Part shown: positions 2,930 through 40,669 of the stretch, in pieces
Numbering within the stretch: the stretch's first letter is position 1
How the letters are laid out: each line of letters starts with the position of its first letter
Origin: the human T2T-CHM13v2.0 reference genome, Homo sapiens
DNA: 64,000 nt
Strand: one strand, 5' to 3'
NCBI RefSeq assembly: GCF_009914755.1
Contig: NC_060932.1
The notes under the pieces: generated by a model
The model's database searches: none
What the model was told of the DNA's origin: nothing
Seen by the model: the letters and a program-made list of their open reading frames with translations, nothing else
Translations under genes and position numbers: made by a program

Positions 2930-3665
<736 letters not shown>

Positions 3666-4427: not shown

Positions 4428-4472
4428 ATATCTGTATCTGTCTGTCTATCTATCTATCTATCTATCATCTAT
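4428..4472. repeat. (TCTG)n(TCTA)n microsatellite
   Basis: Seen directly. Confidence 0.9.
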
Positions 4473-4534
4473 ATGTACGTATGTACATATTTCTGATTTG
4501 ATCCTAACATACAAAAAGAAAACTATAGCCCAGA

Positions 4535-10336: not shown

Positions 10337-10873
<537 letters not shown>

Positions 10874-16800: not shown

Positions 16801-19800
16801 CCAGGGTGTGTACACTCCTCCATTGGATGTTGTTCTCAATATCCAGGGGTGCAGAGGATGATATTACCTCAATATTGCAGGAGGTGTATGACCCGTGTGA
16901 TATTGTTCCAAATATCCAGGGAAGAAGAGGATGTTATCACTTCTAATATCACAGGTAGTGTACACCCTCCCTGTGATATTGTTTCTAGTATACAAAGGGA
17001 AGGGGATGATATTACTCCCTATATTACAGGGGCGGTAAACACCCGTTATGATATTGTTAATAATATTTAGAGGGAGAGATGATGATATTACTGTCAATAT
17101 CACAAAGGGTGTACACCAACTCTGTGCTATTGTTCCTAAAATCCAGTGGAAGAGAGGATGAAAATAATTCCAATATCGAAGACTGTGTACACCCCTTCTG
17201 TGATATTGTTCCTAATATTCAGGGTGGGAGAGGATGATATTGCTCCCAGTATTGGGAGGGGTGCACACACACCCCCGTGAAATTGTTTTAAATATCCAGG
17301 AAGAGAGAGGTTGATATTACTCCCAATAATGCGGAAAGTGTACACACACCCTGTGGTATTGTCCATAATATCTAGGGGGGAGAAAATAATATTACTCCCA
17401 ATATCATAAGAGGTGTAAAACCCCTTTGTTATATTCTTCCTAATATTTAGAGGAAAGAGGATGACACTACTCCCAATATCGCAGGGGTTGTACACGCCCC
17501 CTGTGATATTGTTTCTAATATCCAAGAAGAAGATGATATTACTCCCAATATCGCAGGGGGTGTAACCCCTTTTGTGATATTGTTCCTAATATGCAATGAG
17601 AAAGACGATGATATTATTGTCAATATCGCAGGGGGTGTACAGTCCCCTTGTGATACTGTTCCTAATATCCACAGGGGAACAGGATGACATCACTCCCAAT
17701 ATCGAAGGGGGTGTACACCTCCCCTGTGACGTTGTTACTATTTCCAGAAGGGAAGAGAATGATATTACTTCCAACACTGCAGCCGGGTGTACACCTCCTC
17801 CGTGATATTGTTTCTAATACTCAGGAGGAAAGAAGATGATATTACGCTCAATATCGCAGGGACTCTACACCCCCTCCTGTCATGTTGTCTCTAAAATCCA
17901 GGTGGGGAGAGGATCATATCACTCCCAATATCGCAGGACGTGTACACCCTCCCGTGATATTGTTCCTCATAATCATCAGGAGAGAGGATGATATTACTCT
18001 CAGTGTCGAAGGGGCTGTACACCCCCTCTGTGATATTGTTCCTAATATCCAGGAGGGAAGAGGGTAATAATACTCTCAATATCGCAGGCGGTTTACACCC
18101 CCCTTGTGATATTGTTCCTAATATCCAAGGGGAAAGACGATGATATTACTGCCAATACCACAGGGAGTGTACACCACCCCTGTAATATTGTTCCTAATAT
18201 CCAGGTTGGGAGAGGGTGATATGATGCCCAGTATTGCAGAGGGGTCCACCTTCTTCGTGATATTGTTCCTAATATCCAGCGTGGGAGAGGATGATTTTTC
18301 TCCCAATAATGCAGGGGGTGTACACCCCCTCTGAGACATTGTTTACAATATTATTGACGAGAGAGGATGATATTACCCCCTATAGCACATGGGGTAAACA
18401 CCCTCACTGTAGTATTGTTCCTAATATGTGGCGGGGAGAGGATGATATTACTCCCAGTAGCGCAGGGGATGTACACCCCCCCCTTTGATATTGTTCCTAA
18501 TATCGAGCAGAGGAGAGGATGATATTACTCCCAATACCGCAGTAGGTGTACACACAACCCCCCCGGTGATATAGTTTCTTATATTCAGGGGGGAGAGGAT
18601 GATATTACTTCCAGTATTGCAGGAGGTGTACAACTCCCTGTGATATTGTTCCTAATATCCATGGGCGGAGAAGGTGATATTACTCCCAATATCGCAGAGG
18701 GTGTATACTCTCCTTGTGATATTGTTCCTAATATCCAGAGCGGGAGATGACAATATACTAAAATAGTGCAGGGGGTGTACACCTCCCTGTGATATTGTTC
18801 CAAATATCCAGGAAAGGAGAGGAAGATATTACTCCCAATATCACAGAGATTGTACACCCCCCACCTTGTGATATTATTCCTAATATCCACAGGGAAGAGG
18901 CTGATATTACTGCCCATATTGCAGGGGGCGTACACCCCTGAGATATTGTTAATATTTTCCAAAGGGAGAGATTATTATATTACTATCAATATCGCAGGGG
19001 GGGGAGTACATCACCCCTGTAATATTGTTACTAATATTCAGTAGAAAAGAAAATGATATTAATTCCAATATTGAAGGGAGTGTACACCCCTTCTGTGATA
19101 TTGTTCCTAATATTCAGGGTTGGGGATAGAAAATGATATTACTCTCAGTATCGCAGGGGGGTGTACTATCTCTGCAATATTGTTTCTACTATCCAGGGGA
19201 GAGAGGTTGATAATACTTTCAGTGTTGAAGGGGCTGTACATACACGCTGTTGTATTGTCCCTAGTATTCAGCGGGGAGAGGATGATATTACTCCCAATAT
19301 CACAGGCGGTGCACACCCCCTTTGTGATATTGTTCCTAATATTTAGTGGAAAGAGGATAAAATTACTCCCAATATCGCGGGGGGTGTACACCCCCCCGTG
19401 ATATTGTTTCTTATATCCAGAGAGAAAAGGATGATATTATTCCCAATATCGCAGGGATTGTATACCCCTTTTGTGATACTGTTCCTAATATCCAATGGGG
19501 GAGAAGATGTTGACTGTCAATATCGCAGGCGGTGTACCCACTCCTTGTGATATTCTTCCTAATATCAAGAGGGTGAGAGAATGACATTACTCCCAATATC
19601 GCAGGGGTGTACACCACCCCATGATACGGTTTCTAATATTCGGGGGAAAGAAGATGATATTACTCTCAATATCGAAGGGAATGTACATCCCCCTTGTGAT
19701 AATATCCTTACTATTCAGGTGGGGAGAGGATGATGTTACTCCTGATATTGCAAATGGTTTACACTACCCCGTAATATTGTTCCCAATAACCATGGGGGAA

Positions 19801-22800
19801 AAGGTTGACATTACTTCCAATGCCATAGGGAACGTACGCCCCTCCCCGTGATATTCTTCCTAATATCTGGGAAGGGAGGGGATGATATTCCTTTCAATAT
19901 CGCAGACGGTGTACACCCCACTTGTGATATTGTTTCTAATATTTGAGGGGGGAAACGATGATATTACTGTCAATATCACAGAAAATGAATCTGGACCCTC
20001 CTCCCTGTGATATTGTTCCTAATATCTAGGTTGGGAGACTGTAATATTATGCCCAATATCGCAGAGGGGTACACCCCCTTTGTGATATTGTTCCTAATAT
20101 CCAGGATGAGAGAAAATGTTATTTCTCCCAATATTACAGAGGGTTTACATCAACTCTCAGATATTGTTCCTAATATTCAGAAGGAAAGAGGATGATATTA
20201 CTTTCAATAGCCCTGGGGTGTACACTTCCCCTGAGATATTGTTTTTATTATGCAGAAGGAAAGAGGATAGTATTACACGGAATAGCACAGGGGGTAAACA
20301 CCCCCTCTGTAATATTGTTCCTAATATCCAAGTGAGGAGAGGATATTACTCCCAATATCGCAGGGGCTGTCCACCCCCTCTGTAGATATAGTTCCTAACA
20401 CCGAAGGGAAAAGAGGATGATATTATTTTCAATAATGCAGGGGATGTACTGCTCCCCTGTGATATTCTTCCTGATACCCAGGTTGGGAGAGGATAATATT
20501 ACTTCCAATATCGCAGAATGTGTACACCTTGCCTGTGATATTGTTCCTGATATCCACCAAGGGAGATGAAGAACATATTACTCTCAATATTGCAGAGAGT
20601 ACACAAGCCCCTGTGACACTGTTTTTAATATCCAAGGAAGGAGAAGATGATACTACTCCCAATAGAGCAAGGAGTGTACACACCGCTATGATATTGTTCC
20701 TAATATCCGGGGGGGAGAAGATTACATTACTCCCAATATCACAGTTCTTGTACACACCCCCCGTAATACTGTTCCTAATATCCAGGGGGTAGAGGATGAT
20801 ATTACTTTCAATATCACAGTTCTTGTACACACCCCCCCTGTAATACAGTTCCTAATATCAAGATGAGGAAAGGATAATATTACTCTCAATATCGCAGGGG
20901 GTGTACACCCTCCCCGTTATATTGTTCCTAATATTCAGAGGGGAAGAGAATGATATTACTCCCAACATCGTGGAGGTTTACATTCTCCCGGTGATATTGT
21001 TTCTAATATCCAGTGGGAAAAATGATGATATTACCCCCCAATATCGCAGGGGGTGTACAAGAAACCCCTGTAATACAGTTTTTAATACCCAAGAAAAAGA
21101 GGATTATACTATTCCCAATATCGCAGAGGGTGTACACCTCCCCCCCATGATATTCTTTCTAATATCCAGAAGAGGAGAGAATGATATTACTTTCAATATC
21201 GCAGGGGGTGCACACATCCCTGTGATAGTGTTTTTTCTATCCTGAGGGGGAGAAAATGATATTACTCCCAAAATCGCAAGGGGTGTACAACCATCCTGTG
21301 ATATTGTTCTTAATATCCACGGAGGGAAAGGATGACATTACTCCCAATATTGCAGGGGGTGTACATCCCATTTGTGATATTGTTCCTAATAACCAGGGAA
21401 GGAGAGGATGTTATTATTCTTAATATCTCAGGGAGTGGACACCTTCCCTGTGATATTGTTTATAATATCCAGTTTGGGAGAGGAAGATATTGGTTCCAAT
21501 ACTGCAGAAGGTTTACACCACCCCTAATATCCAAGGAGAAAGATAAAAATATTGCTCCCAATATTGCAGGACGTGTACAGCCTCACAGTTATATTGTTCC
21601 TAATATCCAGAGAGAGAGAAGATGACATTACTCCCAATATTGCATGGGGTACATACTCCCCTGTGATGTTGTTCCTAATATCCAGGGGAGGACAGGATGA
21701 TATTATTCCCAATATTGCAGAGGGTGTACACCCCCCTTGATATTGTTCATAATATCAAGGTGGGAGAAGACAATATTATTTCCAATGTCGCAGAGGGTGT
21801 ACACCTCCTCTGTGATATGGTTCCTAACATCCAGGTTGAGAGAGGATATTACTTTCAATATCACAGAAGGTGTACACCCCACTGTAATATTGTTCATAAT
21901 ATTTAAAGAGGAAGAAAACAGTATTACTCCCAATATGTACAAGGGGCGTACATCCCCCCTGTGATATTGTTTTTAATGTTCAGGAGAGAAGAGGACAATA
22001 TCACTTATTGTTCGTAATGTTTATAGGGAAGAGTATGATATTATTCCGAAAATCCCAGAGGGTGTACACCAACCCTGCGATATTGTTTCTAATATCCTGA
22101 AGGGGAGAAGATAATATTACTTCCAATATCGCAAGGAGTATCCACCCCCCCCGCCATGATATTGTTCCTAATATCCAGAAAGGGAAAAAATGATATTATT
22201 CCCAATATCGCATGAGGTATATACCCCCTTGTGATATTGTTCCTAATATCCAGCGGGGGAGAGGATGATATTACTCTTAATATTGCAGGGGGTGTACACC
22301 CTCCCCTGTGATATTGTTTTTTATATCCAGGAGGAGAGGGGATAATATTACTTCAAATATCACAGGGAGTGTACAATTCCCTGTGATGGTGTTCCTAATA
22401 TCCAGAATAAGAGAAGAGGATATTACTCCCAATATCGCAGAAGCTGTACACCTCACCCATGATATTGTCCCTAATATCCAGGCGGACAGAGGTTGCTATT
22501 ACTCCCAATACTGCAGGAAGTATACACACCTAATGTGATATTATTCCTAATATCCAGGGGGGAGAGGATGATATTACTTTCAATATCACAAAAGGTGTAC
22601 ACCCTGTTTGTGATATTGTTCCTAATATTAGGGGGGAAGAGAATGATGTTACTGCCAATATCGCAGAAGGTGTAAACACCCCGTGATATTGTTTCTAATA
22701 TCCAAAAAGAAAGAAGATGGTATCACTCCAAATGTCGCAGGAGGTGTTCACTGCCCTTGTGATATTTTTCCTAATATCTAAGAGAAGAGACGATGATATT

Positions 22801-24269
22801 AGTGTCAATATCGCAAGGATGTACACACCCCCGTGATATTGTTCCTAATATCCAGGTGGGGAGAGGATGATATTACTCTAAATATCGTAAGGGATTTACA
22901 TCCCACCCCCGTTATATTGTCCTAAATATCCATGTTAAGAGAGGGTGATATGTCCAATATCGCAGAAGCTGTACACAACCCTGTGATATTGTTCCTAATA
23001 TTTTAGGGAAAAAGAGGACGATTTTACTCCCATAATCGCAGGGCGTGTAAACCCCCCTTGAGATATTGTTGTTAATATCCGGGGGAGGAGAGGATGATAT
23101 TACTCGTAATATCACAGGGGGTATAAACCCATTCTGCAATACTGTTCCTAATATGAAGGGGGAGAGAAGATAATGTTACTCCCAATATCGCAGGGCATGT
23201 ACATCACACCTGCGACATTGTTCCTAATATCCACTGCAGGAAAGAATGATACTACTCCCAATTTCGCAGGAAGTGTATAGACTCCTTGTGATATTATTCC
23301 TAATATCCAGGTGGGAGAGATGGAAATATTACTCCCAATATCGCAGGAAGTGTACACTGCCCCTGTGAAATTTTTCCTAATAACCACGGTGGGAGAGGAA
23401 GAAATTATTTGCCATATCGCAGGGGGTGTACACCGTCCGTATGACATTGGTGTTAATATCTAGGGAGAGAGAAAATGATATTACTCCCAATAGTGCAGCA
23501 GATGTACAGACCCCCTGTGATATTGTTCCTAATATACAGAGGGAGAGAGGATGATATTACTCCCAACATCGCGGGGCGGGGGTGTACACCTTCTCTGTGA
23601 TATTGTTTCTAATATTCAGGGAATGGAGGATGATATTACTCCCAGTATTGCAGTGGGTATACACAACCCCTGTGATATTGTTCCTAATATTTAAAGTAAG
23701 ACAGGATGATATTATTCCTAATATCATAGGGGGTGTACACTCTCCCTGTGACAGTCTTCCTAATATCCAAAAGGGGAGAGGATGATATTACTTTAAATAT
23801 CGCAGGGGGTGAACACATCCCTGTGATATTGTTTCTAATACCCGGACGGTAAAGAGATGATAAAACTCCCTAAATATGCAGAAGGTGTACAACATTCCTA
23901 TAATATTATTCTTGGTATCTGGGGGGAGAGAATGACATTACTCAAAATATTACAAGGGGTGTACACCCTGGCCTCGTTATATAATTCTTCTTATACAGGG
24001 GGTGCAGAGAGGATGATATTACTCTCAATATCGTATGAGTGTACACTTCCCCTGCGATATTGTTCCTAATATCCAGGATGAAAGAGGATGATATTACTCC
24101 CAACATCGCAGAAAAAGTACATCACACCTGTGATATTGTTCCTAATATCCAGAACGGAAGAAGATGATATTACTCCCAATATCGCAGGGTGTGTACACCA
24201 GCCCTGTGATATTGTTCCTAATATCCAGAGGAAAAGAGGATATTACTTTCAGTATCTCACGGGAGTGAC

Positions 24270-27200
24270 CATATGTAAAGTAATATCACCCCCTTCTCTC
24301 CCCCTGGATATTACGAGCGACATGGGAGGGGGGAGGACACACCCCGCCACATCGGGAGTAACATCACCCCTCCTTCCTTTTTATGAGCCACTTGGCAGGG
24401 GGATGTCAACACAGCGTGTTTATATTATTGAGAGTAAAATCATGTCCCTCTTTGGAAATACGAGCAACGTCACAGGGGTGTGTACAGCACCTGCGATATT
24501 GGGAGTAATATCACCCTCTCCTCCTCTGGATATTAGAAACAATATCACTGGGGTGTGTACACCTTCTGCGATATTGGGAGTAATATCATATCCTTTTCCT
24601 CTGGATATTAAGAACAACAGCACAGGGAAGGTGTACACCTCCCACCATATTGGGAGCAATATCCTATTTCACCCTAGATATTACAGGGGGGTGTACAGTC
24701 CCTGCGGTATTGGGAATAATATCATTTTATCTCTCCACCCTTGATATTAGGAACAATATCACAGGGGTGTTTACATTCCCTGCGATATTGAGAGTAATAT
24801 CATCTTCTCTCCTTTTGGATATTAGGAAAGATATCACAGGGGGTGTGTACACCCTCTGCGATTTTGAAAGTAATATCCTCTTCTTCCCTGTATATTAGAA
24901 ACGATATCACAAAAGGAATGTACACTTTCTTTGATATTGGGAGTAATATTATCTTCTCCCCTTCTTGGTATTAGGAAAGATATCACGGGGGTGTGTATAC
25001 CTTCCGTGATATTGAGAGTAATATCATCCTCCTTTTTCCTGGATATTAGGAAAAACATGTGAGGGTGGGTGTACACTTCCTGCAATATTGGGAGTAATAT
25101 CATCCTCCATCCTCATATATTAGAAACAATATCCCAAAGGACGTGCACATTCCCTGCGATATTTGGAATAATATTGTCTTCTCCCTTCCGGATATTAGGA
25201 ACAATATCACTTAGGGGTGTACACCTCTTGCGATATTGGGAGTAATCCTCTTTCCCCTTGGATATTAAAAACAATATCACAGAGGGGGTGTACACCCTCT
25301 TAGAAATTGGTAGTAATAACATACTGTCCTTCCCCGGATATTAGAAACAATATTACAGGGTGGGTGTTCACCCACTGCAATTTTTGGAGTAATATCATCC
25401 GCTCCCTTCATAGATATTAGGAACAATATCACAGGCAGGGTGTTTCCCCCACCTGCGATATTGGGAGTAATATCATGCTCTCTTCACCTGAATATTGGAA
25501 TTATTCCCAATATACCCCCTGTGATATTGGGAGTAATACCATCTCTCCTGGATATAATAAATGTTGTCACAGTGGGGGTGTACAAACCCTGCGATTTTGA
25601 AAGTAATATCATCTTCTCCATCACTGAATATTAGAAACATTGTCACACAGATGCGTATACCCCTGTGATATTAAAAGTAATAGCATCCTCTCCCCTCCTG
25701 AATATTAGGAAGAATATCATGGGGAGGAATTGTATACCCCCTGCAATATTGGGAGTAATATCTTCTCCCCCCCGGATATTAAAAACAGTATCACAGAGGG
25801 GTGTACACTCTTTGTGAAATTGGGAGTAATATCATCTTCTCACCCCTGGATATTAGGAACAAAATCACAGGCAAGGTGTGTTCACCCTGCGATATTGAAA
25901 GTAATATCATCCTCTCCGAACCTGGATCACTCCCACCGTGATATTGAGAGAATCATCATTTCTCCTAGTGGATATTGAGAACTATTTCACCCAGGCGGTG
26001 TTCCCCCCACCTGCGATATTGGGAGTAATATCATCCTCTCCCCCACTGAATATTAGAAATAATATCATGGGGGGGGTGTACACCCTTTAAAATATTGAGA
26101 GTAATATCATCCTCTTTCCTTCTGCAAATTAAAAACAATATCACGGGGGGTGTATGCCCCCGCGATATTGGAAATAATATCATACTCTCCCCTCCTGGAT
26201 ATTAGGAACAATATCATAGAGGGGGTGTACACCCCCTGCGATATTGAAAGTAATATAATCACCTCCCCCCTCTGGATATTCACAACAATATCACGATGGG
26301 GGTTTACATCACCTTCGATATTGGGATTAATATCCTCTTTTCCACTGGATATTGGAAACAATATCACAGGGGGTGTACACCCCCTACGATATTGGCAGTA
26401 ATATTATTGTCTTTCTCCTGTATGTTATTAACAACATCAAAAGGGTGGTGTATACCCCCTGAATATAGGAAGTAATATCATCTTCTGCTTCCTGGATATT
26501 AGTTACAATATCACAGGGGATGTGTAGACTCCCCGCGATATCGGAAGTAATATCATCTTCTCCCGTCTGGATATTAGGAAAAATATCACAAGGGGTTGTA
26601 CACCCCCTGTGATATTGTGAGTAATATCATCCTCTTGTTCTCTAGAAAGTAGGAGCAATGTAACAGGGGGTGTAAACCTCCTGCGATATTGGGAGTAATA
26701 TTGTCGTCTCGTTTTCTAGAGATGAGGAACAATATCACAAGGAGAGTATACACTCCCTGAGATATTCGGAGTAGTATCATCCTCTTCCCCTTTGGATGTT
26801 AGAAACGGTATCACAGGAGGGGTGTGCACACCCTGCGATATTGAAAGTAATATTATTCTCTGTTCTCTGCGACATTAGAAACAATATCACAGGTGGAGTG
26901 TACACACCCCACGATATTGTGTGTAATATCATCCTCTCTTCTCTTCAATATGAGAAACTATATCACATCGGTGTGTACACCCGCTGCGTTATTGGGAATA
27001 ATATTATTTCTCCCCGCCTGGATATTAGGAGCAATATCACAGGGAAGGTGTACAACCCCTGCGCTATTGGGAGTAATATCACCCTCTCCCCCACTGGATA
27101 CTAGAAACAACATTTCAGGGAGGAGTGTAAACTTTTTGCGATTTTGGTAGTAATATTATTCTCTCCGCCTTGGATATTAAAAAAGAATAAGAATATTACA

Positions 27201-30200
27201 TAGGGGTGTACACCCCCTGCGATTCAGGGTAATATCACCCTTTCCCCACCTGAATATTAGGAACAATATCACAGGGGTACACACCCTATGATCTTAACAG
27301 TAATATCCTCTTTCCTTCTGAACAATATAAACAACATCACAGTGGGGGTTTACACCCTTTGCTACATTGGGAGTAATATTATCCTTCTTCCCCTGGATAT
27401 TAGGAATAATATCACATGGAGGGTGTACACCCCCTGCGATATTGGAAGGAATATCATCTTCTCCCCTTATAATTATTAGGAACAATATCACAGGGGGCGT
27501 GTACACCTCCTGCGATATTGGGAGTAACATCATCCTCTCCCCACCTGAATATTAAAAACAGTATCACAGGGGTGTGTGTGTACACCCCCTGTGTGTGTAC
27601 ATCCTCTCTTCCCCTGAATATTAGGAATAATATCACTAGGGTGGTGTACATCCCCTGCAATATTAGGAGTAATATCATCCTCTCCTCCACTGGGGATTAG
27701 GAAAAATATCACAGGAAAGGTGCACACCCCCTGCGATGTTGAGAGTAATATCATCGTCTCCCCCCTTAGATGTTAAGAACAATATCACACGAGAAATGTG
27801 CATCCCCTGCGATATTGGGAGTAATATTATCCTCTCCGACCCTGGATATGAAAAACAATATCACAGGAAGCGTGTACGTTCTCTGAGATATTGGGAGTAT
27901 TATAATTTTCTCTCCTTTAAATATTAGGAACAATATTTTTAAAAAGGTGTACACCCCCTGCGACATTGGGAGTAATGTCATCATCTCCCTTCTGGATATG
28001 AGGAACAATACCACAGGGGGTGTGTTTACCCCCTGCATTATTGGGAGGAATATCAGCCTCTCCCTCCCTGGATATTAGAAACAATATCACAGTGGGGGGT
28101 TTACACACTCTGCGATATTGGGAGTAATATCATCCTCTCCCCACATGGATATTAAAGAAACAATATCACAGAAGGGGTGAATACCTTCTTCAATATTGGA
28201 TGTAATATCATCCTCTTCCCCCCACACCCCGCCGGATATTAGGAACAATAACACAGGGGGTTGCACATCCCCTGCGTTATTGGGAGTAATATCATTCCCT
28301 CCCCCATTGGATATTAGGAACAATATCACAGGAGTGGTGTGCACCTCCTGCGATATTGGGAGTTAATATCATCTTCTCCCCACCTGGATATTAGAAACAA
28401 TATTATGGGGGGGTGTACACCCTCTGCGATATTGGGAGTAATATCATCCTCTCCCCCTCTGATTATTAGAAACAATATCACAGTGGGGTGTACACTTCTT
28501 GCAATATCGGAAGTAATATCATCCTCTCCCCCCTGGTATTAGAAACAATATCACAAAGGGGATGTACACACCCTGCGATATTGACAGTAATATCATCATC
28601 TTTTTTCTTGGATATTAGGAACAATATCCCATGGGGGTTCACACCCTTGCGATATTAGAAGTAATATCCTCCTCTCCCCTTTAGGATATTAGAAACAATA
28701 TCACGGGGCGTGTACACCCTCTGTGATATTGAGAGTAATATCATTTTCTCCTCACGATACATTAAGAACAATATAAAAAAGGGGGTGTACATCTGTTGCG
28801 ATATTGGGAGTATTGTCATCTTTTTTCTTCTGGATATTAGGAACAATACCACAGTGGATGTGTACACCCCTGCAATATTGAAAGCAATATCAACCTCTCC
28901 CCCCCCCCAGATATTAGGAAAAATATCAAGGGGGGCTGTACACCCCTTGCGATACAAGGAGTAATATTATCCTCTCCTCACCTGGCTTTCAAAAACAATA
29001 TCACAGGGGGTTGTACACCCCTTCGATTTTGGGAGTAATATCCTCTCCCTCTCTGGATATCAGAAACAATATCACAGGGTGAATGTACATTCCCTAGGAT
29101 ATTGGGAGTAATATCTTTCTCTTTACCTTTGGATATTAGGAACAATATCACAAGGGGTTGTAAAACCCCTGCGATATGTATACTAATAGTATCCTCTTCT
29201 TTCCTGGATATCAAAAACAATATCACAAGGTGGATGTACACACCCTGCGATATTGGGAGTAATATTATGCTCTCTTCCTCTGGATATTAGAAACATCACA
29301 GAAAGGGTGTACACCCCTACGACATTGGGAATAATATCATCCTCTGCGACCCTGAATATTAGGAACATTATCACAGGAAGGGTGTGATAACCCCCTGCAA
29401 TATTGGGAGGAATGTCATCCTCTCCCACCTTGAATATTAGGAACAGTATCACAGGAAGGGTGTACACCGTACATCCCCTGGGATATTGGGAGGAATATCA
29501 TCCTCTCCCACCCTGAATATTAGAAATAATATCACAGGAGATTGTTCACCCTCTGTAATATTGTAAGTAATATCATCCTCTCTCTCTCTCTAAATATTGG
29601 GAACAATATCACAAGAGAGGTGTACACCCCTGGTGATGTTGGGTGTAATATTATCATCTCTCGCTTTGGATATTAGAAACAATGTGACAGAAGGTGTGTA
29701 CAACCGCTGCGGTATTGGGAGTAATATCATCCTCTCTCCACTTGAATATTAGAAACATTGTCACCTGGGGAGTGTAAACCCCCTTGCGATTTTGGACATA
29801 ATATCATTATTTTCCTTCCTGGATATTATGAACATTATCACAGAATGCGTGTACACCCCCTGTGATATTGGGAGTAATATCATCCTCTCCCTTTTTGGAT
29901 ATTAGTAACAATATTACAGAGGAGGTGTACACCTCTGCGATCTTTGGAGTAATATTATCTTCTCCCCCTTTGGATATTCAGAAAATATAACATGGGGTTG
30001 TACACTCCCTGCGATGTTGGAAGTAATATCATCCTCTCCCTCCTGAATATTAGGAACAATATCAAGGTGGGGGTGTACAGCCCCTGCAATATTGGGAGTA
30101 ATGTCCTATTCTCCCCCTTATGATTTTAGGAACATTATCACAGGGGAAGTGTACACCTTCTGCGACATTGGGAGTAATATCATCTTGTTTCTTTCTGGAT

Positions 30201-30738
30201 ATTAGGAACAATATCCCAGGATGGGTGTAAACCTCCTGCGACATTGGGAGTAATATCCTTCTCTCCTTCTTTGGATATTAGGAACAATGTCACAGTGGTG
30301 GTGTACACCCCCTGCGATATTGGGAGTAATATCTTCCTCTCCTCCACCCCTCCGAATATTGGGAACAATATCACAGAAGGTGTTTACACCCTGTGCGACA
30401 CTGGAAGTAAAATCATCCTCTCCGCCTCCGGATATTAGCAACAGTATCACAGGAGGGTGTACACCCCCTGCGATATTGGAAGAAATATCATCCTCTCTAA
30501 AACTGGATATTAGGAACAATATCACAGGGAAGGTGTACACCTGCTGCGATATTGGGAGTAATATCATCCTTCCCCACCCTGGATATTAGGAACAGTATCA
30601 CAAGGGGAATGTACACCCGCCGCAATATTGGGAGTAATATCATCCTCTCCCTTCCTGGATATTAGGTACAACATCACCGGGAGACGTACTCTCCCTGGGA
30701 TATTGGGAGTAATATCATCCTCTTCCCCCATGGATATT
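24270..30738 (-). repeat. Inverted block of the same satellite
   Basis: Monomers read as the reverse complement (GCGATATTGGGAGTAATATCATCCTCTCCCC...GGATATTAGGAACAATATCACA) between ~24270 and ~30738. Confidence 0.95.
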
Positions 30739-33700
30739 GGGAGTGTACACTCTCCTGTGATATTGTTTCTAATATGCAGGGGGGGAGTTGATATTAATCC
30801 CAATATCGTAAACACCCTGTGTGTATATCCTCTGTGATATTGTTCATAATATCCAGGGTGGCAGAGGATGATATTATTCCCAATGTCACAGGATGCATAC
30901 ACCATCCTATGATATTGTTCATAATAAAGGGGAGGAGAGGATGATATTACTCTGAATATCGCAAAGGGTGTACACCTTCCTATGATATTGTTCATAATAT
31001 TCAGAGGGGGAGAGGATGACATTACTTCCAATATCGCAGGAAGTGTACACTCCCCTGTCATATTGCTTATAATTTTCAGTGGGGGGGAGCATAAAATTAT
31101 TCCCAATATCTCAGAGGGTGTACATTCCCCTCTGATATTGTTTGTAATACCCACTGGGGGAGAAAATGATATTACTCCCAATATCGCAAAGATTGTACAC
31201 CCCCCGTGATATTGTTCATAATATCCAGGGGGAAAGAGGATGATATTACTCTTAATATTGCAGGGGTGTACACCTATTTGTAATATTGTTCATGATATCC
31301 GGGGGGGAGAGAAGGATATTACTCTTAATAGGGCAGGGGATGTACACCCCTTGTGATATTGTTTGTAATATCAAGGTGGGGAGAGAATGATATTACTCCC
31401 AATTTTGCAGGGGATGTACGCCCACCTGTGATGTATCCCCAATATTGCAGGGGGTGTACGGTCTTCTGTTATATTGTTCGTAGTATTCAGGTGGAAAGAA
31501 AATGATATTAACCTCAATATTGCAGGGGGTGTACACCCTCCCATGATATTGTTCATAATATCCAGTGAGGAAGAGGATGATATTACTTTCTATATTGCAG
31601 CAGATGTAAAACCCTCTGTGATATTATTTGTAATATCCAGGAAGGGAGAGGATGATATTACTTCCCATATCACAGAGGGTATACACCCTTCTGTGATATT
31701 GCCCGTAATATGTAGAGGGGTGGTGGTGAGAATGACATTAATCCCGATATCGCTAGAGATGTACACCCCTCTAGTGATATTGTTCGTAATATCCAGGTGG
31801 GGAGAGGATGATATTACTGCTTATATCGTAGGAAGCATAGAATGTCCTGTGATATTATTCAAAATATCCAAAAGAAGACCGGATGATATTACTTCCAATA
31901 TTGCAAGGGGTGTACACCCTTCTGTGATATTGTTCACAACTTCCAGGGAATGAGAAGACAATATTACTCCCCATATGACAGGTAGTGTCCACCCCCGTAT
32001 GATATTGTTCATTATATCCGGTGGGAAAGAGGATGATATTACTAGCCATATTGCAGGAGTTGTGATATTGTTTGTAATATTCAGGGCGAGGGAGGATAGT
32101 ATTACCCTCCATATCACAAAGTGTGTACACATCCTTGTGATATTGTTCGTAATATCTGGGGGGGTAGGAAGATAATATTACTGCCTATATCGCAAAACGT
32201 GTACACCCACTTGTGATAGTCTCCAAAATATTTAATGGGGAAAAGGATAATATCACTCCCCATATCGCAGAGTGTATACACGTTCCCCGTGATAATGTTC
32301 CTAATATCGGGGAGGGGGAAGAAGATGACATCACTCCCCATATCGCAGGGTGTACGTGTCCCTCTGTGATATTGTTCATAATATCCATGGAGGGAGAGGA
32401 TGATATTACTTCTTATATCGCAGGGGGTGTGCATTCCCCTGTGATACTGTTCGTCACAGCCAGGGAGAGAGGCTGATATTAATCCCCATATCACAAAGGG
32501 TGTACACCTTCCTGTAATATTGTCCATAATATCTAGGAAGGGAGAGGAAGCTATTACTCCCCATATCAAAGGTGATGCACACTCCTCTGTGATATTTTTC
32601 ATAATATCCAAGGGGGAAGTGGATGATATTATTTCCCTGTGAGATTGTTTGTAATATCCAAAAAGGGGGGAGGGTGATTACTCCCACTATCACAGAAATT
32701 GTACACCCTTCTGTGATATTGTTTGTAATATCCAGGGCTGGAGAGGATAATATTACTCTCAATATCACAGGGAGTGTACATCACCTGCAATATGGTTTGT
32801 AATATCCAAAAAGGAAAAGGATGTTATTTCTCCCAGTATTACAGGGATTGTACACTGCCCTGTGATATTGTTTTTAATATCCAGGGGAAAGAGGATAATA
32901 TTACTCCCAATATCGCATCTGTTATATTGTTGGTAATATCCAAGGGGGGAAGAGGATGATACTACTCCTCATATGGCAGTGGGTGTACACACCTCTGTGA
33001 TATTGTTCATAATATTTCAGGGAAGGTGAAATGATATTACTCCTCATATCACAAAGTGTGTAGACCTTCCAGTGATATTGTTTGTAATACCCAGGAGGAG
33101 AGAGGATGATATTACTCCCCCCGTCACAGAAGGTGTACACCCATCTGTGATATTTTCCTAATATCCAGGAAGGGAGAAGGTAATATTACTCCCCATATCG
33201 CAAAGGATGTACACCCTTCTGTGATATTTTCATAACATCCGGGGTTGGGAGAGGATGATACTACTTCCTATATCACAGAAAGTGTAGACCCCCCTGTGAT
33301 ACTGTTCATAATATCCAGGACGGGGAAAGGATAATATTAATCCTCATATGGCAAGTGGTGTACTCCCCCTTGTGATGTTGTTCATAATATCCAGGGGTGG
33401 AGAGGATGATATTACTTACCATATCACAGGAGGTCTACATCTCCCTTTGTTATCGTTCATAATTTCCAGCGTTTGAGAGGATAATATTACTTCCCATATT
33501 GCAGGGTGTGTACACCTCCTGTGATAAATGTTTGTAATATTTAGGGGAGGAGAGGATGACATTACTCCCCATATCGCAAGGGGTGCACACTTCCCTGTGA
33601 TATCATTCGTAATATCCAGGGAGGGAGAGGACAATATTACTCCCCATATCGCATGGGGTTTACACCCATCATGTGATATTGTTCCTAACACCCAGGAAGG

Positions 33701-35000
33701 AAGAAAATGATATTACTCTTAATATTGCAGGCGGGTTACACTCTCCTTGTGATATTGTTCCTAATATCCAAGGAGAAAGACGATGATATTACCGTCAATA
33801 CCACAGGGAGTGTACACCACCCCTGTAATATTGTTCCCTAATATCCAGGTTGGGAGATGGTGATATTACACCCATCACAGAGAGATACACCTTCTTTGTG
33901 ATATTGTTCCTAATATCCAGCGTGGGAGAGGATGTTATTTCTCCCAATATTGTATTGGGTAGACACCTCCTCTGAGCTACTCTTTATAATATTATTGGTG
34001 GGAGAGGGTGATATTACCCCAAATAGCACAGGGGTAAACACTCCCGCTGTGGTATTGTACCTAATATGCAGGCGGGGAGAGGATGATACTACTCCCAATA
34101 GCGCAGGGGGTGTACACCCCCCCTTTGATATTGTTCCTAATATTGAGAGGGGAAGAGGAAGATATTACTCCCAATAGCACAGTAGGTGCATGCACACCCC
34201 ACCTGTGATATTGTTCCTAATATCCAGAAGGAAAGAGAATAATATTACTCCCAATATTGCAGGGTTGTACATCACTTCGTGATATTGTTTCTAACATTCA
34301 GGGGGAAAGAAGATGATATTACTCTCAGTATCAAACGGGGTGTACACTCCCCTGTGATATTGGCCTTAATATTCAGGTGGGGAGAGGGTGATATTACTCC
34401 TAATATCGCAAATGGTGTACACCCCCCATAGTATTATTCCCAATAACATTTTGGGGAAAGGATGATATTACTCCTAATGGCACAGGGAATGTACACCCTC
34501 CTTAAGATAGTCTTCCTAATATCTAGGGGATGATATTACTTTCAATATTGCAGATGGTGTACACCCCCTTGTGATATTGTTTCTAAATTTCGAGGGAGGT
34601 AGACGATGATATTACTGTCAATACCACAGAAAATGGACACTCCCCTTGTGATATTGTTCCTAATGTCTAGATTGGGAGATGGTAATATTACACCCAATAT
34701 CACAGAGGGGGTACATCCTCTTTGTGATAGTATTCCTAATATCCAGGATAAGAGAGGATGTTATTTCTCCCAATATCACAGTGGGTGTACATCCCCTCTC
34801 AGATATTGTTCCTAATATTCAGAAGGAAAGAGAATAATGTTACTTCCAATAGCGCAGGGGGTGTACACTTCACCTGTGATATTGTTTTTAATATGCAGAA
34901 GGAAAAAGGATAATGTTACACTGAATAGCGCTGAATGAAAATACTCCCTCTTTGATATTGTTCCTAATATCCAGGTGAGGAGAGGATGATCTGTAGATAC

Positions 35001-37878
35001 TGAGTTAATTTTTGTGTAAGGTGTAAGGAAGGGATCCAGTTTCAGCTTTCTACCTATGACTAGACAATTTTCCCAGCACCATTTATTAAATAGGGAATCC
35101 TTTCCCCATTGCTTTTTTTTTTGGTCAGGTTTGTCAAGATCAGATGGTTGTAGATGTGTGGTGTTATTTCTGAGGCCTCTGTTCTGTTCCATTGGTCTAT
35201 ATGTCTGTTTTGGTACCAGTACCATGCTGTTTTGGTTACTGTTGCCTTGTAGTATAGTTTGAAGTCAGGTAGTGTGATGTCTCCAGCTTTGTTCTTTTTG
35301 CTTAGCATTGCCTTGGTTATGTGAGCTCTATTTTGGTTCCAAATGAAATTTAAAGTAGTATTTTCCAATTCTGTGAAGTAAGTCAGTGGTAGCTGAATGG
35401 GGATAGCATTGAATCTATAAATTACTTTGGGCAGTATGGCCATTTTCACAATATTGATTCTTCCTATCCATGAGCATGAAATGTTCTTCCATTTGTTTGT
35501 GTCCTCTTTCATTTCCTTGAGCAGCAGTTTGTAGTTCTCCTTGAAGAGGTCCTTCACATCCCTTGTAAGTTGGAGTCCTAGGTATTTTATTCTCTGTAAT
35601 TGTGAATGGGAGTTCACTCATGATTTGGCTCTCTGTCTCTTCTTGGTGTATAGGAATGCTTGTGATTTTTGCACATTGATTTTGTATCCTGAGACTTTGC
35701 TGAAGTTGTTTATCAGCTTAAGGAGATTTTGGGCTGAGATGATGGAGTTTTCTAAATATAGGATCATGTCATGGGGCAAACAGAGACAATTTTACTGCCT
35801 CATTTCCTAATTGAATACCCTTTATTTCTTTCTCTTGCCTGATTGCCCTGGCCAGAACTTCCAATAATATGTTGAATAAGAGTGGTGAGAAAGAGCATCC
35901 TTGTTTTGTGCTGGTTTTCAAAGGGAATGCTTCCAGTTTTTGCACATTCAGTATGATATTGGCTGTGAGATTATCATAAATAGCTTTTATTATTTTGAGA
36001 TACGTTCCATCAATACCAGCTCATTGAGAGTTTTTACCATGAAAGGCTGTTGAATTTTGTTGAAGGCCTTTTCTACATCTATTGAGATAATCATGTGGTT
36101 TTTGTCATTGGTTCTATTTATGTGATCGATTACATTTATTGATTTGCATATGTTGAACCAGCCTTGCATCCCAGAGATGAAGCTCACTTGATCATGGTGG
36201 ATAAGCTTTTTGATATGCTGCTGTATTTGGTTTGCCAGTATTTTATTGAGGATTTTCGCATCAATGTTCATCAGGGATATTGGTCTAAAATTCTATTTTT
36301 TTGTTGTGTCTCTGCCAGGCGTTGGTATCAGGATGATGCTGGCTGGCCTCAAGAAATGAGTTAGGGAGGATTCCCTCTTTTTCTATTGATTGGAATAATT
36401 TCAGAAGGAATGGTACCAGCTCTTCTTTGTAACTCTGGTAGAATTTAGCTGTGAATCCATCTGTTCCTGGACTTTTTTTGGTTGGTAGGCTATTAATTAT
36501 TGCCTCGGTTTCAGAACCTGTTATTGGTCTACTCAGAGATTCAACTTCTTCCTGGTTTAGTCTTTGGAGGGTGTTTATGTCCAGGAATTTATCCATTTCT
36601 CCCAGATTTTCTAGTTTATTTGCATGGTGGTGTTTATAGTATTCTCTGATGGTAGTTTGTATTTCTGTGGGATCAGTGGTGATATCCCCTTTATCATTTT
36701 TTATTGCGTCTATTTGATTCTTCTCTCTTTTCTTCTTTATTAGTCTTGCTAGCGGTCTATCAATTTTGTTGATCTTTTCAAAAAACCAGCTCATGAATTC
36801 AATGATTTTTTGAAGGGTTTTTTATGTCTCTATCTCCTTCAGTTCTGCTCTGAACTTAGTTATTTCTTGTCTTCTGCTAGCTTTTGAATTTGTTTCCTCT
36901 TGCTTCTCTAGTTCTTTTAATTGTGATGTTAGTGTGTCAATTTTAGATCTTTCCTGCTTTCTCTTGTGGGCATTTAGTGCTATAAATTTCCCTCTACACA
37001 CTGCTTTAAATGTGTCCCAGAGATTCTGGAATGATGTGTATTTGTTCTCATTGGTTTGAAAGAACATCTTTGTTTCTGCCTTCATCTCGTTATTTACCCA
37101 GCAGTCATTCAGGAACAGGTTGTTCAATTTCCATGTAGTTGTGCGGTTTTGAGTGAGTTTCTTAATCCTGAGTTCTAATTTGATTTCTCTGTGGTCTGAG
37201 AGATAGTTTGTTGTGATTTCTGCTCTTTTACTTTTGCTGAGGAGTGTTTTACTTCCAATTATGTGGTCAATTTTAAAATGAGTGTGATGTGGTGCTGAGA
37301 AGAATGTATATTCTGTTGATTTGGGGTGGAGAGTTCTGTAGATGTCTATTAGGTCTGCTTGGTGCAGAGCTGAGTTCAAGTCCTGGATATCCTTGTTAAT
37401 TTTCTATCTCATTTATCTGTCTAATATTGACACTGGGGTGTTAAAATCTCCCATTATTATTGTGTGGGAGTCTAAGTCTCTTTGTATGTCTCAAAGAACT
37501 TGCTTTATGAATCTGGGTGCTCCTGCATTGGGTGTATATATATTTAGGAGAGTTAGCCCTTCTTGTTGAATTGATCCCTTTACCATTATGTAATGGCCTT
37601 CTTTGTCTCTTTTGATCTTTGTCGGTTTAAAGTCTGTTTTATCAGAGACTAGGATTACAACCCCCACCTTTTTTTGTTTTCCATTTGCTTGGTAGGTCTT
37701 CCTCCATCCCTTTATTTTGAGCCTATGTATGTCTTTATATGTGAGATGGGTCTCCTGAATACAGCACACCTACAGGTCTTGACTCTACCCAATTTGCCAG
37801 TCTGTGTCTTTTAACTGGGGCATTTAGGCCACTTACATTTAAGATTAATATTGTTATGTGTGAATTTGATCCTGTCAT
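35001..37878 (-). pseudogene. L1 ORF2p endonuclease/RT (frameshifted, truncated near codon 960)
   Basis: ATG at 37878 (MTGSNSH). [36 protein letters not shown] and [15 protein letters not shown] fragments in the ORF track. Confidence 0.93.
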
Positions 37879-37938
37879 GATGCTAGCTGGTTATTTTGCC
37901 CATTAATTGATGCAGTTTCTTCATAGTATTGTTGGTCT

Positions 37939-38962
37939 TTACCATTTGGCATGTTTTTGCAGTGGCTGGTACTGGTTGTTCCTTTCCATGTTTAGTGCTT
38001 CCTTCAGGAGCTCTTTTAAGGCAGGCCTGGTAGTGACAAAATCTGTCAGCATTTGCTTGCCTGTAAAGGTTTTTATTTCTCCTCCACTTATAAAGCTTAG
38101 TTTAGCTGGATATGAAATTCTGGGTTGAAAACTCATTTCTTTAAGAATGTTGAATATTGGCCCCCACTCTCTTCTGGCTTGTAGGGCTTCTGCTGAGAGA
38201 TCCGCTGTTAGTCTGATGGGCTTCCCTTTGAGGGTAACCTGACCTTTCTGTGGCTGCCCTTAACATTTTTTCCTTCATTTCAACCTTGGTGAATCTGACA
38301 ATTATGTGTCTTGGGGTTGCTCTTCTTGAGAAGTATCTTCGTGGTGTTCTCTGTATTTCCTGTATGTGAATGTTGGCCTGCCTTGCTAGGTTGGGGAAGT
38401 TCTGCTGCATAATATCCTGAAGAGTGTTTTCTAACTTGGTTCAATTCTCCCCATCACTTTCAGGTACACCAATCAAATGTAAATGTGGTATTTTCATATA
38501 GTCCCATATTTCTTGGAGGCTTTGTTCTTTTCTTTTTACTCTTTTTTCTCTAATCTTGTCTTCTCACGTTATTTCATTAATTTGACCTTCAATTACTGAT
38601 ATCCTTTCTTCTGCTTGATCGAATCGGCTATTGACACTTGTGTATGCTTCATGCAGTTCTCATACTGTGATTTGCAGCTCCATCAGGTCATTTAAGCTCT
38701 TCTGTACACTGGTTATTCTACTTAGCCATTCATCTAATCTTTTTTCAAGGTTTTTAGCTTCCTTGCAATGGGTTAGAACATGCTCCTTTAGCTCGGAGAA
38801 GTTTGTTATTGCTGACCTTCTGATGCCTACTTCCATCAACTTGTCAAACTCATTCTCCATCCAGTTTTGTTCCCTTGCTGGCAAGGAGTTGTGCTCCTTT
38901 GGAGGAGGAGAGGTGTTCTGGCTTTTGGAATTTTCAGCCTTTCTGCTCTGGTTTCTCCCCAT
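37939..38962 (-). pseudogene. L1 ORF1p (disrupted)
   Basis: ATG at 38962. Fragments MGRNQSRKAENS..., NFPNLARQANIHIQEIQRTP and FQPRISYPAKLSF...HAKW* lie in different frames. Confidence 0.92.
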
Positions 38963-39950
38963 CTTACAGGTTTTATCTACCTTTTGTCTTTGAGGTTGGT
39001 GACCTATGAATGGGGTTTTCATGTGGATGTCCTTTTTGTTGATGTTGATGCTATTCCTTTCTGTTTGTTAGTTTTCCTTCTAACAGAGAGGTCCCTCAGC
39101 TGCAGATCTGTTCGAGATTGCTGCAGGTCCACTCCAGACCCTGTTTTCCTGGGTATCACCACAGAGGCTGCAGAACAGCAAATATTGCTGCCTGATCCTT
39201 CCTCTGGATGCTTTGTCTCAGTGGGGCACCCAACTGTATGAGGTGCCTGTCAGCCCTAGGAGTTGTCTCCCAGTGAGGCTACTTGGGGGTCAGGGACCCA
39301 CTTGAGGAGGCAGTCTGTCTGTTAGCAGATTTTGAATGCCATGTTGAGAGAACCACTGCTCTCTTCAGAGCTGTCAGGCAGGGATGTTTAAGTCTGTAGA
39401 AACTGTCTCCTGCCTTTTGTTCAGATATGCCCTGCCCCCAGAGGTGGATTCTAGAGAGGCAGTAGGCCTTGTTGAGCCATTGTGGGCTCTGCCCAGTTTG
39501 AGCTTCCCTGCCTCTTTGTTTACACTGTGAGCATAGAACTGCCTACTCAAGCTTCAGCAATGACGGATGCCCCTCTTCCCACCATGTTCCAGCATCCCAG
39601 GTCAATCTCAGACTGCTTTGCTAGCAGTGAGCAAGGCTCCATGGTCGTGGGACCCACTGAGCCAGGCACATGAGGGAATCTCCTTGTCTGCCAGTTCCAA
39701 AGACTGTGGGAAAAGCACAGTATTGGGCAGAAGTGTACAGTTCCTCCAGGTACAGTCACTCACGGCTTCCCTTGGTTAGGAAAGGAAAATCCCCCGACCA
39801 CTTGTGCTTCCTAGGTAAGATGGTGTACGTCAGTCGGAAATGCAGAAATCACCCCTCTTCTGTGCTGATCTTGCTGGGAGTTGTAGGCCAGAGCTGTCCC
39901 TATTCAGCCATCTTGAAGGCACCCTTTGACATGATTTTTTTTTAAGGTTG

Positions 39951-40658
39951 TCTAATGCTTGAGGTTCTTGCCTAGCCACATCAGAATTGGAGTGGTGGAT
40001 GACCATGGCGAGTGATAGAGAAACGGACCGATAGAGAGAAAAAGCTGTAGGCTTTATTGAGCAGAGTGAAAGTATAAAGCTTCCACAGCATGGAAGGGGT
40101 CCTGCACGGGCCAGAGTTAAATTACACAATTGCCTTTTAAACTCTTTAAGGCAGGAAATATGTGCAGCAGGAAGATGTTACCAGAGCAGGAAACAAAGAC
40201 AATTAAACATTTGTGACATGTCTTAGATCTTGAGGAAAACTGGAATTGCAACTTCGGTTTTATCTATTTTATGACCTTGCAGCAGCATGGCAAAGGAGAC
40301 AGGATCTTACAGGACTTTACAAAGTATGTTTATAAGGAATTGGAATTGGGAGCATAGATAAGGTCTTCTGGTCACAGAAAAATGGGCAGTTAACATTCCT
40401 TTTACTTTAGTTTTGGGGTAGAGGAAAGGGAGAGAGGCAGACAGGGCACAGGGAAACTTACAGCAAAATTTTCATTGTTTATAGCTTTCTTGGGGAAGAC
40501 AACACATGCACAAATCCTGATGTTAGGAATAGTTTAAGCATATATCTTCAATATTATTCATCCAGGACTGAAGCAAGTCCTGATGTAGGAAATGAGTGAG
40601 TTTCACAGCTTTCTAAGCCCCTACTCAACCCAGGAAGCCCAGCTAGCCTCTCCTCTCA
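39951..40658 (-). repeat. 3' LTR (LTR30-like)
   Basis: Preceded by the PPT. AATAAA at 40053-40058 (minus strand). Terminal CA mutated to GA. Confidence 0.95.
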
Positions 40659-40669
40659 GTCCCCCCTCT
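40659..40669 (-). promoter_or_regulatory. Polypurine tract
   Basis: AGAGGGGGGAC immediately before the 3' LTR. Confidence 0.9.

What the first reader, a model, noticed from the sequence alone, without database searches (positions are those of the whole stretch)
34985..35003. Right-junction filler of the 28-kb satellite matches the LEFT flank: the array looks captured into one DNA break
Seen: the 10 nt CTGTAGATAC (34991-35000) between the last monomer (...GAGAGGATGAT) and the L1 (TGAGTTAATT...) belong to neither element. The junction GATGATCTG|TAGATACTGA (34985-35003) is an exact concatenation of GATGATCTG (6724-6732) and TAGATACTGA (6772-6781). Both pieces lie 60-120 bp outside the other end of the array, in the same order and orientation. 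There is microhomology to the satellite (GATGAT) and to the L1 (TGA). Established: short templated inserts copied from near a break end, flanked by microhomology, are a signature of polymerase-theta end joining or MMBIR. Inference: both array ends took part in one repair event, so a pre-formed satellite block was pasted into a break with deletion and no TSD. That would be a route by which SATR arrays disperse as mobile units.
Basis: partly seen in the sequence, partly recalled or inferred. Interest (0 to 1): 0.8.

Follow-up and report, generated by a model that had tools for sequence, protein, structure and literature searches.

The report
Copied filler at satellite–L1 junction
Ten bases wedged between a 28-kb satellite array and a broken L1 element look copied from DNA just outside the array's other end, a repair scar suggesting that both borders of the array were made in one DNA-break repair.

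Summary
GATGATCTG (6724-6732) and TAGATACTGA (6772-6781) abut at 34985-35003, and neither occurs elsewhere in the window. Chance is unlikely: 0 of 20,000 flank shuffles and 0 of 35,030 mock fillers under same-strand colinear tiling reach 19 nt. The filler is neither L1 nor satellite, and it is not a recurring monomer variant.

Best reading: a two-tract (3 + 7 nt) templated insertion bounded by 6-nt and 3-nt microhomologies, typical of polymerase-theta end joining. The L1 lacks its 3' end, so the junction postdates L1 insertion. The array's internal divergence exceeds the L1's, so the array was already long when the junction formed.

This supports "both borders made in one event". It does not show capture from elsewhere:
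- no donor array was found;
- 0 of 6 other arrays carry a similar scar;
- a local complex deletion that kept the array fits equally well.

Orthologous primate loci would decide, but they could not be searched here. This is a neat single-locus case of a known kind of scar, of moderate interest.

The parts
6724..6732 (+). Template 1, GATGATCTG, in single-copy left-flank DNA. The first 6 nt are microhomology to the array's last bases; the last 3 nt (CTG) were copied.
   Evidence: Flank 6560-6842 is single-copy in the genome and not satellite-like.
6772..6781 (+). Template 2, TAGATACTGA, 39 nt downstream of template 1. The first 7 nt were copied; the last 3 nt (TGA) are microhomology to the L1 break point.
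6842..34990. Satellite array of 75-76-bp monomers, 370 monomer hits, with no higher-order repeat at lags 1-30. Mean pairwise monomer identity is 0.736.
6842..24241 (+). Forward-oriented block of the array (226 monomers).
24251..30738 (-). Inverted block of the array (86 monomers).
30739..34990 (+). Forward-oriented right block (58 monomers). It contains old copies of 8576-9900 and 17965-18486.
34985..34990 (+). GATGAT, the last satellite bases and the 6-nt microhomology with 6724-6729.
34991..35000 (+). 10-nt filler CTGTAGATAC, made of CTG (as 6730-6732) plus TAGATAC (as 6772-6778). The internal joint has no microhomology.
35001..35003 (+). TGA, the first L1 bases and the 3-nt microhomology with 6779-6781.
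35001..39924 (-). L1 on the minus strand, complete at its 5' end but missing its 3' end. The estimate of roughly 1.2 kb missing rests on a recalled full length of about 6 kb. There is no inverted 3' arm, so this is not twin priming.
10372..10710 (+). Single Alu with a (CT)n(AT)n tail inserted inside the array. It is a marker that this part of the array has not been re-amplified since.

Best explanation
The 10 nt between the last monomer and the L1 are a templated insertion made during end joining.

Proposed mechanism (inferred): a free 3' end annealed by a short overlap to single-stranded DNA of the unique segment that now lies just left of the array. It copied a few bases, fell off, re-annealed 39 nt further along the same template and copied a few more. 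The newly made overlap then sealed the joint. Two directions of synthesis fit the sequence:
- The L1 end primed at TGA, copied 7 nt, then copied 3-9 nt, and sealed through GATGAT to the satellite end.
- The mirror image, starting from the satellite end.

Such scars are the hallmark of polymerase-theta end joining, with microhomology-mediated template switching as the close alternative. They use templates within about 50-100 nt of a DNA end. The left flank must therefore have been at or beside a break when the right junction formed. It follows that both borders of the array were made in one multi-end repair event.

Timing (inferred): the event came after the L1 had inserted, and the array already had essentially its present length and diversity.

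Shown: the exact two-piece copy, the overlaps, the improbability by chance, the L1 truncation and the relative ages. Inferred: the enzyme, the order of steps and the single event. Not decided: whether the block came from another locus or was a resident fragment kept while DNA on both sides was lost.
For: - Exact 9+10-nt abutting matches, unique in the window, same strand and same order.
- Chance tests: 0 of 20,000 shuffles; 0 of 35,030 mock fillers in the colinear test. Across 626 other real 300-bp windows of the locus the best score is 17, against 19 for the flank next to the other array border.
- The filler is not L1: 7 of 7 copies read differently. It is not satellite. The 16-mer is not recurrent: 1 exact hit genome-wide, and 44 hits at one mismatch or fewer against 94 for the reversed control.
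- Tract lengths of 3 and 7 nt, more than one round of copying, direct orientation and an AT-rich template match the description of polymerase-theta templated insertions in PMC7165422 (passages read).
- A 3'-truncated L1 that is complete at its 5' end can only arise after insertion.
- The L1 is 88.5-90.3% identical to 7 paralogs over 1.5 kb. The array's background identity is about 72-74%. Its best internal duplicates are 79.7% over 2.2 kb, with sub-blocks at 82-92%. A single Alu sits un-amplified inside the array.
Against: - The templates lie 61-118 nt from the left border, beyond the 50-bp working definition. In the extrachromosomal assay of PMC7165422 a 6-bp microhomology 30 bp from both ends already failed.
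- The internal CTG|TAG joint has no microhomology.
- The left junction shows no reciprocal scar: only 7-mers against the right flank and 10-mers against the array, both at chance level.
- Weak local alternatives exist in the L1: TGTAGAT at 35149-35155 and the reverse complement of TGATCT at 35137-35142.
- Among 35,030 mock fillers scored on any strand and in any order, 17 positions also reach 19.
- The finding comes from a very large scan, so a 1e-4 coincidence is not impossible.
- The age argument assumes that satellite and L1 mutate at similar rates.
- Only one genome was available.
Confidence: 0.55

Rival explanations
1. Resident array with a later right-side deletion. The array had long sat against the left flank. 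A break in or beside it removed the right part of the array, the intervening DNA and the L1 3' end. The joint was made by replicative template switching (MMBIR/FoSTeS type) that reached back 28 kb to the far flank.
For: - Multi-template insertions with microhomology are described for MMBIR-type events (PMC8421209, passages read).
- The array is rich in palindromic motifs and has two orientation switches, so breakage is plausible.
- No donor array is needed.
Against: - Nothing in this model explains why the template should lie within 120 nt of the array's other border rather than anywhere else nearby.
- A 3' end finishing in GATGAT would find far longer homology in hundreds of monomers than at one isolated GATGAT outside the array.
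- Templates in the cited work lie within 100 bp.
Confidence: 0.17
2. Chance. The filler is untemplated or locally templated end-joining junk, and its likeness to the left flank is coincidence.
For: - 17 of 35,030 mock fillers reach the same score when any strand and order are allowed.
- The flank is AT-rich.
- Only 10 of the 19 matched bases are filler, and one tract is just 3 nt.
- A 7-mer and a 6-mer in the nearby L1 cover 8 of the 10 filler bases.
- The finding was picked from a scan of very many windows.
- 0 of 6 other arrays show anything similar.
Against: - 0 of 20,000 shuffles.
- 0 of 35,030 mock fillers in the same-strand colinear test.
- The best template among all 300-bp windows of the 64-kb locus is the one beside the other array border.
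- Both k-mers are otherwise absent from the window.
Confidence: 0.15
3. Short seed, later growth. Only a few monomers lay next to the left flank when the L1-truncating joint formed, so the template was truly local. The array then expanded in place to 28 kb.
For: This keeps the template within ordinary end-joining range without a 28-kb fragment. The array has a domain structure, with monomer types differing between edges and centre, and shows internal duplications.
Against: - Growth after the L1 truncation should leave long blocks more alike than the L1 is to its paralogs (88.5-90.3%).
- Instead, mean monomer identity is 0.736 with no periodicity. The best 2.2-kb duplicate is 79.7%, and only 225-bp windows reach 0.91-0.92.
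- One Alu inside the array was never co-amplified.
Confidence: 0.06
4. Flank duplication then decay. A tandem duplication or a long staggered-break duplication first placed a second copy of 6724-6841 to the right of the array. Two later deletions (39 nt, and from after TGA into the L1) left the two fragments.
For: The pieces are in the same order and orientation as in the flank. GATGAT could have mediated the duplication joint.
Against: It needs three events where one suffices. The two deletions must both end at the exact bases seen. There is no other trace of a second flank copy.
Confidence: 0.05

Closest known systems
Locally templated insertions (TINS) of polymerase-theta-mediated end joining (PMC7165422, passages read)
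   Same: A short insertion identical to DNA near a break. Tracts are under 10 nt, there is more than one round of copying, microhomology sits at the outer alignments, and the direct-repeat orientation is the one expected when one end copies another end.
   Different: The template is 28 kb from the joint in today's sequence and 61-118 nt from the other border, against 50 bp or less in the definition. This is an evolutionary scar, so enzyme dependence cannot be tested.
MMBIR / FoSTeS templated insertions (MMB-TI; PMC8421209, passages read)
   Same: Multi-template insertions bounded by microhomology at a rearrangement joint.
   Different: The signature searched for in that work is an inverted copy within 100 bp. 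Here both tracts are direct copies, and one internal switch lacks microhomology.
Microhomology-mediated insertion and eccDNA-reintegration models for satellite spread in Drosophila (Rsp-like into 1.688; PMC7403614, passages read). A related claim for Tribolium (PMC11610590) was seen only as a search listing.
   Same: A block of satellite bordered by microhomology joints with no target-site duplication, read as a product of break repair rather than transposition.
   Different: There, many young and near-identical clusters share junction types, and syntenic empty sites were shown. Here there is one old array, a unique junction, no donor and no outgroup.
Capture of extrachromosomal DNA fragments at double-strand breaks (for example mitochondrial DNA inserts). 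This comparison is recalled from general knowledge; no call supports it.
   Same: Foreign DNA ligated between two ends of one break, often with deletion and short fillers.
   Different: The size (28 kb) and the satellite nature of the fragment. The origin of the fragment is unknown.

Membership tests
Polymerase-theta templated insertion (TINS) | Insertion of 3-30 bp identical to DNA flanking the break | tested here: met
   The 10-nt filler is a 3 + 7 nt exact copy of 6730-6732 and 6772-6778. It counts as 'flanking' only if the left flank was at the break.
Polymerase-theta templated insertion (TINS) | [quoted passage not shown] | tested here: inconclusive
   The templates are 61-118 nt from the left border and 28 kb from the right joint. 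The original end positions are unknown.
Polymerase-theta templated insertion (TINS) | Microhomology at primer-template alignments; short synthesis tracts; more than one round for longer inserts | tested here: met
   6-nt GATGAT and 3-nt TGA at the outer edges, 0 nt at the inner switch, tracts of 3 and 7 nt.
Polymerase-theta templated insertion (TINS) | Dependence on POLQ | not testable with these tools
   This is a germline event of the evolutionary past.
MMBIR templated insertion (MMB-TI as defined in PMC8421209) | Inverted copy of a template within 100 bp of the insertion | tested here: not met
   Both tracts are direct copies. The only inverted match is the TAGATAC reverse complement at 6659-6665.
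Satellite block inserted at a new locus (capture / eccDNA reintegration) | Empty orthologous site in an outgroup | not testable with these tools
Satellite block inserted at a new locus (capture / eccDNA reintegration) | Donor or sister array of matching age elsewhere in the genome | tested here: not met
   - The best matches elsewhere are 67-77% identical. Only 1 of 334 and 16 of 324 candidates were scored, and the self-match was not returned, so these two searches are weak.
- 32-mers allowing up to 3 mismatches: the right-end one is unique, the left-end one has 3 hits at 3 mismatches, and an interior one hits many arrays at 2-3 mismatches.
Satellite block inserted at a new locus (capture / eccDNA reintegration) | The same kind of junction scar at other arrays of the family | tested here: not met
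   0 of 6 other arrays with both ends in hand show a cross-flank match of 10 nt or more. The 9-mers seen there are satellite sequence at fuzzy borders. Many more arrays exist but could not be fetched.
Transposon-type insertion | Target-site duplication directly flanking the insert | tested here: not met
   Only a 7-mer, AATTTTT, is shared between the border regions, and its right copy is L1-internal.
L1 twin-priming inversion (would make 35001 an original L1 insertion joint) | Sense-oriented L1 3' arm with poly-A following the inverted arm | tested here: not met
   The L1 5' end at about 39924 is followed by non-L1 DNA. No L1 3' sequence occurs in 1-6841.
   No repeat library was available. 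Dispersed arrays of the same 75-76-bp monomer exist on many chromosomes. SATR1 is described as dispersed in primates in bioRxiv 10.1101/2025.08.04.668424 (passages read).

The most novel reading that the evidence does not exclude
A ready-made satellite block of about 28 kb left another locus as a linear fragment or circle. It may have carried about 120 bp of its old flank. A single microhomology-driven end-joining event then captured it into a break in a catarrhine ancestor, deleting the L1 3' end. If so, large interstitial satellite arrays can move as passive mobile units, and the copied filler is the first base-level scar that ties both ends of such an array to one repair event in primates.
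Probability: 0.3. Interest if true: 0.7.

Novelty: new member of a known kind. Interest (0 to 1): 0.45.

Why it matters
How interstitial satellite arrays come to be scattered over many chromosomes is poorly documented at base resolution in primates. A filler that links the two borders of a 28-kb array gives a concrete and cheap test. Complete ape and monkey assemblies can show whether the site was once empty, whether the array was resident with extra flanking DNA, or whether the two borders differ in age. The same tiling statistic can be run over every array border in complete genomes, to ask whether break repair with templated synthesis is a regular way in which arrays are placed or trimmed.

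Tried and rejected
- Left flank as degenerate satellite, which would make GATGAT homologous to the monomer. Rejected: the profile scan finds nothing in 6300-6841 even at E<=100.
- Filler as diverged L1. Rejected: 7 of 7 L1 copies read ...CCATCT before the shared sequence.
- Filler as a recurring monomer variant. Rejected.
- L1 twin priming or an original L1 insertion joint. Rejected.
- L1 target-site duplication partner in the left flank. None found.
- Reciprocal filler at the left junction. None found.
- Whole-array self-BLAST timed out. It was replaced by monomer matrices and a restricted BLAST.
- Genome DNA searches with 1-kb array ends returned neither the self-match nor most candidates, so they are weak evidence against a donor.
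A smaller fetch gave one more complete array.
- No structure, protein or RNA tool was relevant.
Full report
**Observation.** GATGATCTG lies at 6724-6732 and at 34985-34993. TAGATACTGA lies at 6772-6781 and at 34994-35003. Neither k-mer occurs anywhere else in the 64-kb window on either strand, and CTGTAGATAC occurs once. The two pieces abut at the right junction. In the left flank they lie 39 nt apart, in the same order and on the same strand.

**Borders.** I built a profile from 246 full-length monomers of the array. It places satellite homology from 6842 to 34991. It finds nothing satellite-like in 6300-6841 even at E<=100, so the flank GATGAT is not a decayed monomer.

The L1 lies on the minus strand. 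In the own-genome search, 40 of 1,883 candidates were scored. The 39 non-self matches begin at query base 11 or 13, which is window 35001 or 35003. All 7 fetched copies read ...CCATCT where the window has the filler.

The L1 is complete at its 5' end, near 39924, and is followed by unrelated DNA. It is not the inverted arm of a twin-primed insertion. No L1 3' sequence lies in 1-6841. No partner of the L1's 5'-flank target site is found to the left. A 3'-truncated L1 can only arise after insertion, so the junction is younger than the L1.

**Chance.** I scored how well the 10-nt filler can be tiled by at most two exact matches to a 300-bp template, extended outward into the junction. The observed total is 19 nt.

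| Test | Result |
|---|---|
| 20,000 dinucleotide shuffles of the left flank, both strands, any order | 0 reach 19; 4 reach 18; 5 reach 17; 16,693 give no tiling |
| Real junction vs 348 real non-array 300-bp windows | maximum 17 |
| Real junction vs 278 array windows | maximum 15 |
| True flank vs 35,030 overlapping mock fillers, any strand and order | 17 reach 19; 47 reach 18 |
| Same, restricted to same-strand colinear tiling | 0 reach 18 or 19; 29 (four clusters) reach 17 |

I put the per-test probability near 1e-4.

Weak local alternatives exist in the L1: a 7-mer at 35149-35155 and an inverted 6-mer at 35137-35142. Both are at chance level.

**Not a family feature.** The junction 16-mer is unique in the genome. 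Hits with one mismatch or fewer (44 in total) are fewer than for the reversed control (94). The 283-nt left flank is single-copy.

**The array.** It holds 370 monomer hits of 75-76 bp in three blocks: forward (6871-24217, 226 monomers), inverted (24251-30738, 86) and forward (30739-34963, 58). Mean pairwise monomer identity is 0.736, with no periodicity at lags 1-30. The median nearest-neighbour identity is 0.861.

The best long internal duplicate is 31592-33768 against 7916-10092, at 79.7% over 2,212 columns. Within it, the stretch 8576-9900 scores 0.82-0.92 in 225-nt windows. A second duplicate, 17965-18486 against about 33610-34150, scores 0.83-0.88. One Alu sits inside the array and was never co-amplified.

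The L1 is 88.5-90.3% identical to seven paralogs over 1.5 kb. If substitution rates are similar, which is an inference, nearly all of the array's diversity predates the L1. It therefore also predates the junction. That argues against growth from a short seed after the joint was made.

**Mechanism.** The scar matches what PMC7165422 (passages read) describes for polymerase-theta end joining:
- insertions of 3-30 bp identical to flanking DNA;
- tracts rarely longer than 10 bp;
- several rounds of copying for longer inserts;
- direct repeats when one resected end copies another;
- earlier rounds of synthesis creating the microhomology that finally seals the joint.

Two mirror-image paths fit. In the first, the L1 end anneals at TGA (6779-6781) on the 3' overhang of a left chromosomal end. 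It copies 7 nt, re-anneals 39 nt further along and copies CTG plus GATGAT. It then pairs with the satellite end. In the second, the satellite end anneals at GATGAT on the overhang of the left end of a fragment that includes 6724-6841. It copies CTG, then TAGATACTGA, and pairs with the L1 end through TGA.

Points against this mechanism:
- The inner switch has no microhomology.
- The templates lie 61-118 nt from the left border, beyond the 50-bp working definition.
- The left junction carries no reciprocal scar.

Template switching of the MMBIR type is the close alternative. Multi-template events are described for it, but the published signature is an inverted copy within 100 bp (PMC8421209, passages read).

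**What follows and what does not.** The strongest argument is one of location. The best template in the whole locus lies beside the array's other border. That is expected if both borders were made in one event, or if the array was then very short. It is unexplained if a long resident array merely suffered a later right-side deletion. In that case a 3' end finishing in GATGAT would also have had hundreds of better partners inside the array.

One genome cannot separate capture of a block from elsewhere from a local multi-break event that kept a resident array and lost DNA on both sides. No donor was found:
- The terminal 1-kb pieces match other arrays at only 67-77%. These searches scored few candidates and missed the self-match, so they are weak.
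- A 32-mer from the last monomer is unique at up to 3 mismatches.
- A 32-mer from the left end has three hits at 3 mismatches.
- A 32-mer from the interior hits many arrays at 2-3 mismatches.

Six other arrays with both ends in hand (chr7, chr4 twice, chr15, chr9, chr14) show no cross-flank match of 10 nt or more. The claim of a general dispersal route is therefore not supported here.

**Comparison with what is known.** Templated insertions are a well-described scar. Spread of satellite clusters through microhomology joints and circular DNA has been proposed for Drosophila (PMC7403614, passages read). There it rests on many young clusters, shared junction types and empty syntenic sites, all of which are lacking here. 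SATR1 is described as dispersed in primate genomes in bioRxiv 10.1101/2025.08.04.668424 (passages read). I searched for 'SATR1' and for satellite, eccDNA and microhomology terms. I saw no paper that treats this chr8 array, but these two searches do not show that none exists.

**Verdict.**

| Reading | My probability |
|---|---|
| Templated origin of the filler | about 0.8 |
| Both borders made in one event, with an already long array | about 0.55 |
| Capture from another locus | about 0.3 |

This is a new, well-marked member of a known kind of repair scar, of moderate interest, and it can be tested directly with existing complete primate assemblies.

Noticed in passing
window 24241-24262 and 30738-30739: There are two orientation switches inside the array. 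The first sits at a hairpin-like motif (ATTACTTT...AAAGTAAT) and is followed by about 200 bp of badly decayed monomers (24263-24460). The second falls within the GATATT / GTGTACAC palindromic motifs.
   Followed up: partly
whole array, 6842-34990: The monomer has dyad symmetry. It contains a GGGGGTGTACACCCCC-type palindrome and two GATATT...AATATC inverted pairs. As a result, nearly every monomer also gives a partial reverse-strand profile hit.
   Followed up: partly
L034/L035 (chr4:173.14 Mb), L039 (chr9), L040/L041 (chr14), L042 (chr3), L043 (chr4:22.57 Mb), L045 (chr7:7.17 Mb): Orientation switches are common in this family. Seven of the 11 arrays looked at, including this one, have blocks in both orientations. 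Some of these arrays were seen only in part.
   Followed up: partly
window 8576-9900 vs about 32250-33580; 17965-18486 vs about 33610-34150: Old in-register segmental duplications inside the array (82-92% and 83-88% in 225-nt windows). The right 4-kb block is partly built from copies of the left and middle parts.
   Followed up: yes
window 10372-10710: A sense-oriented Alu lies inside the array, with its tail turned into (CT)n(AT)n. It is flanked by CAGAAG-like short repeats that may be its target-site duplication.
   Followed up: partly
L040 about 4370-4450 (chr14:16.905 Mb) and L039 about 3900-3921 (chr9:14.983 Mb): The chr14 array abuts a truncated antisense Alu, and the chr9 array abuts a poly-A run. 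At least one other array border therefore also postdates a primate retroelement. The identification of the Alu is by eye and from recall.
   Followed up: no
window 39953-40660 and 48979-49689: An unidentified repeat directly beyond the L1 5' end has a 90%-identical copy (over 713 aligned bases) about 9 kb further right.
   Followed up: no
(tool behaviour): Own-genome DNA searches with 1-kb satellite queries did not return the query's own locus, and they scored only 1 of 334 and 16 of 324 candidates. Negative results for repeats from this route are unreliable.
   Followed up: partly
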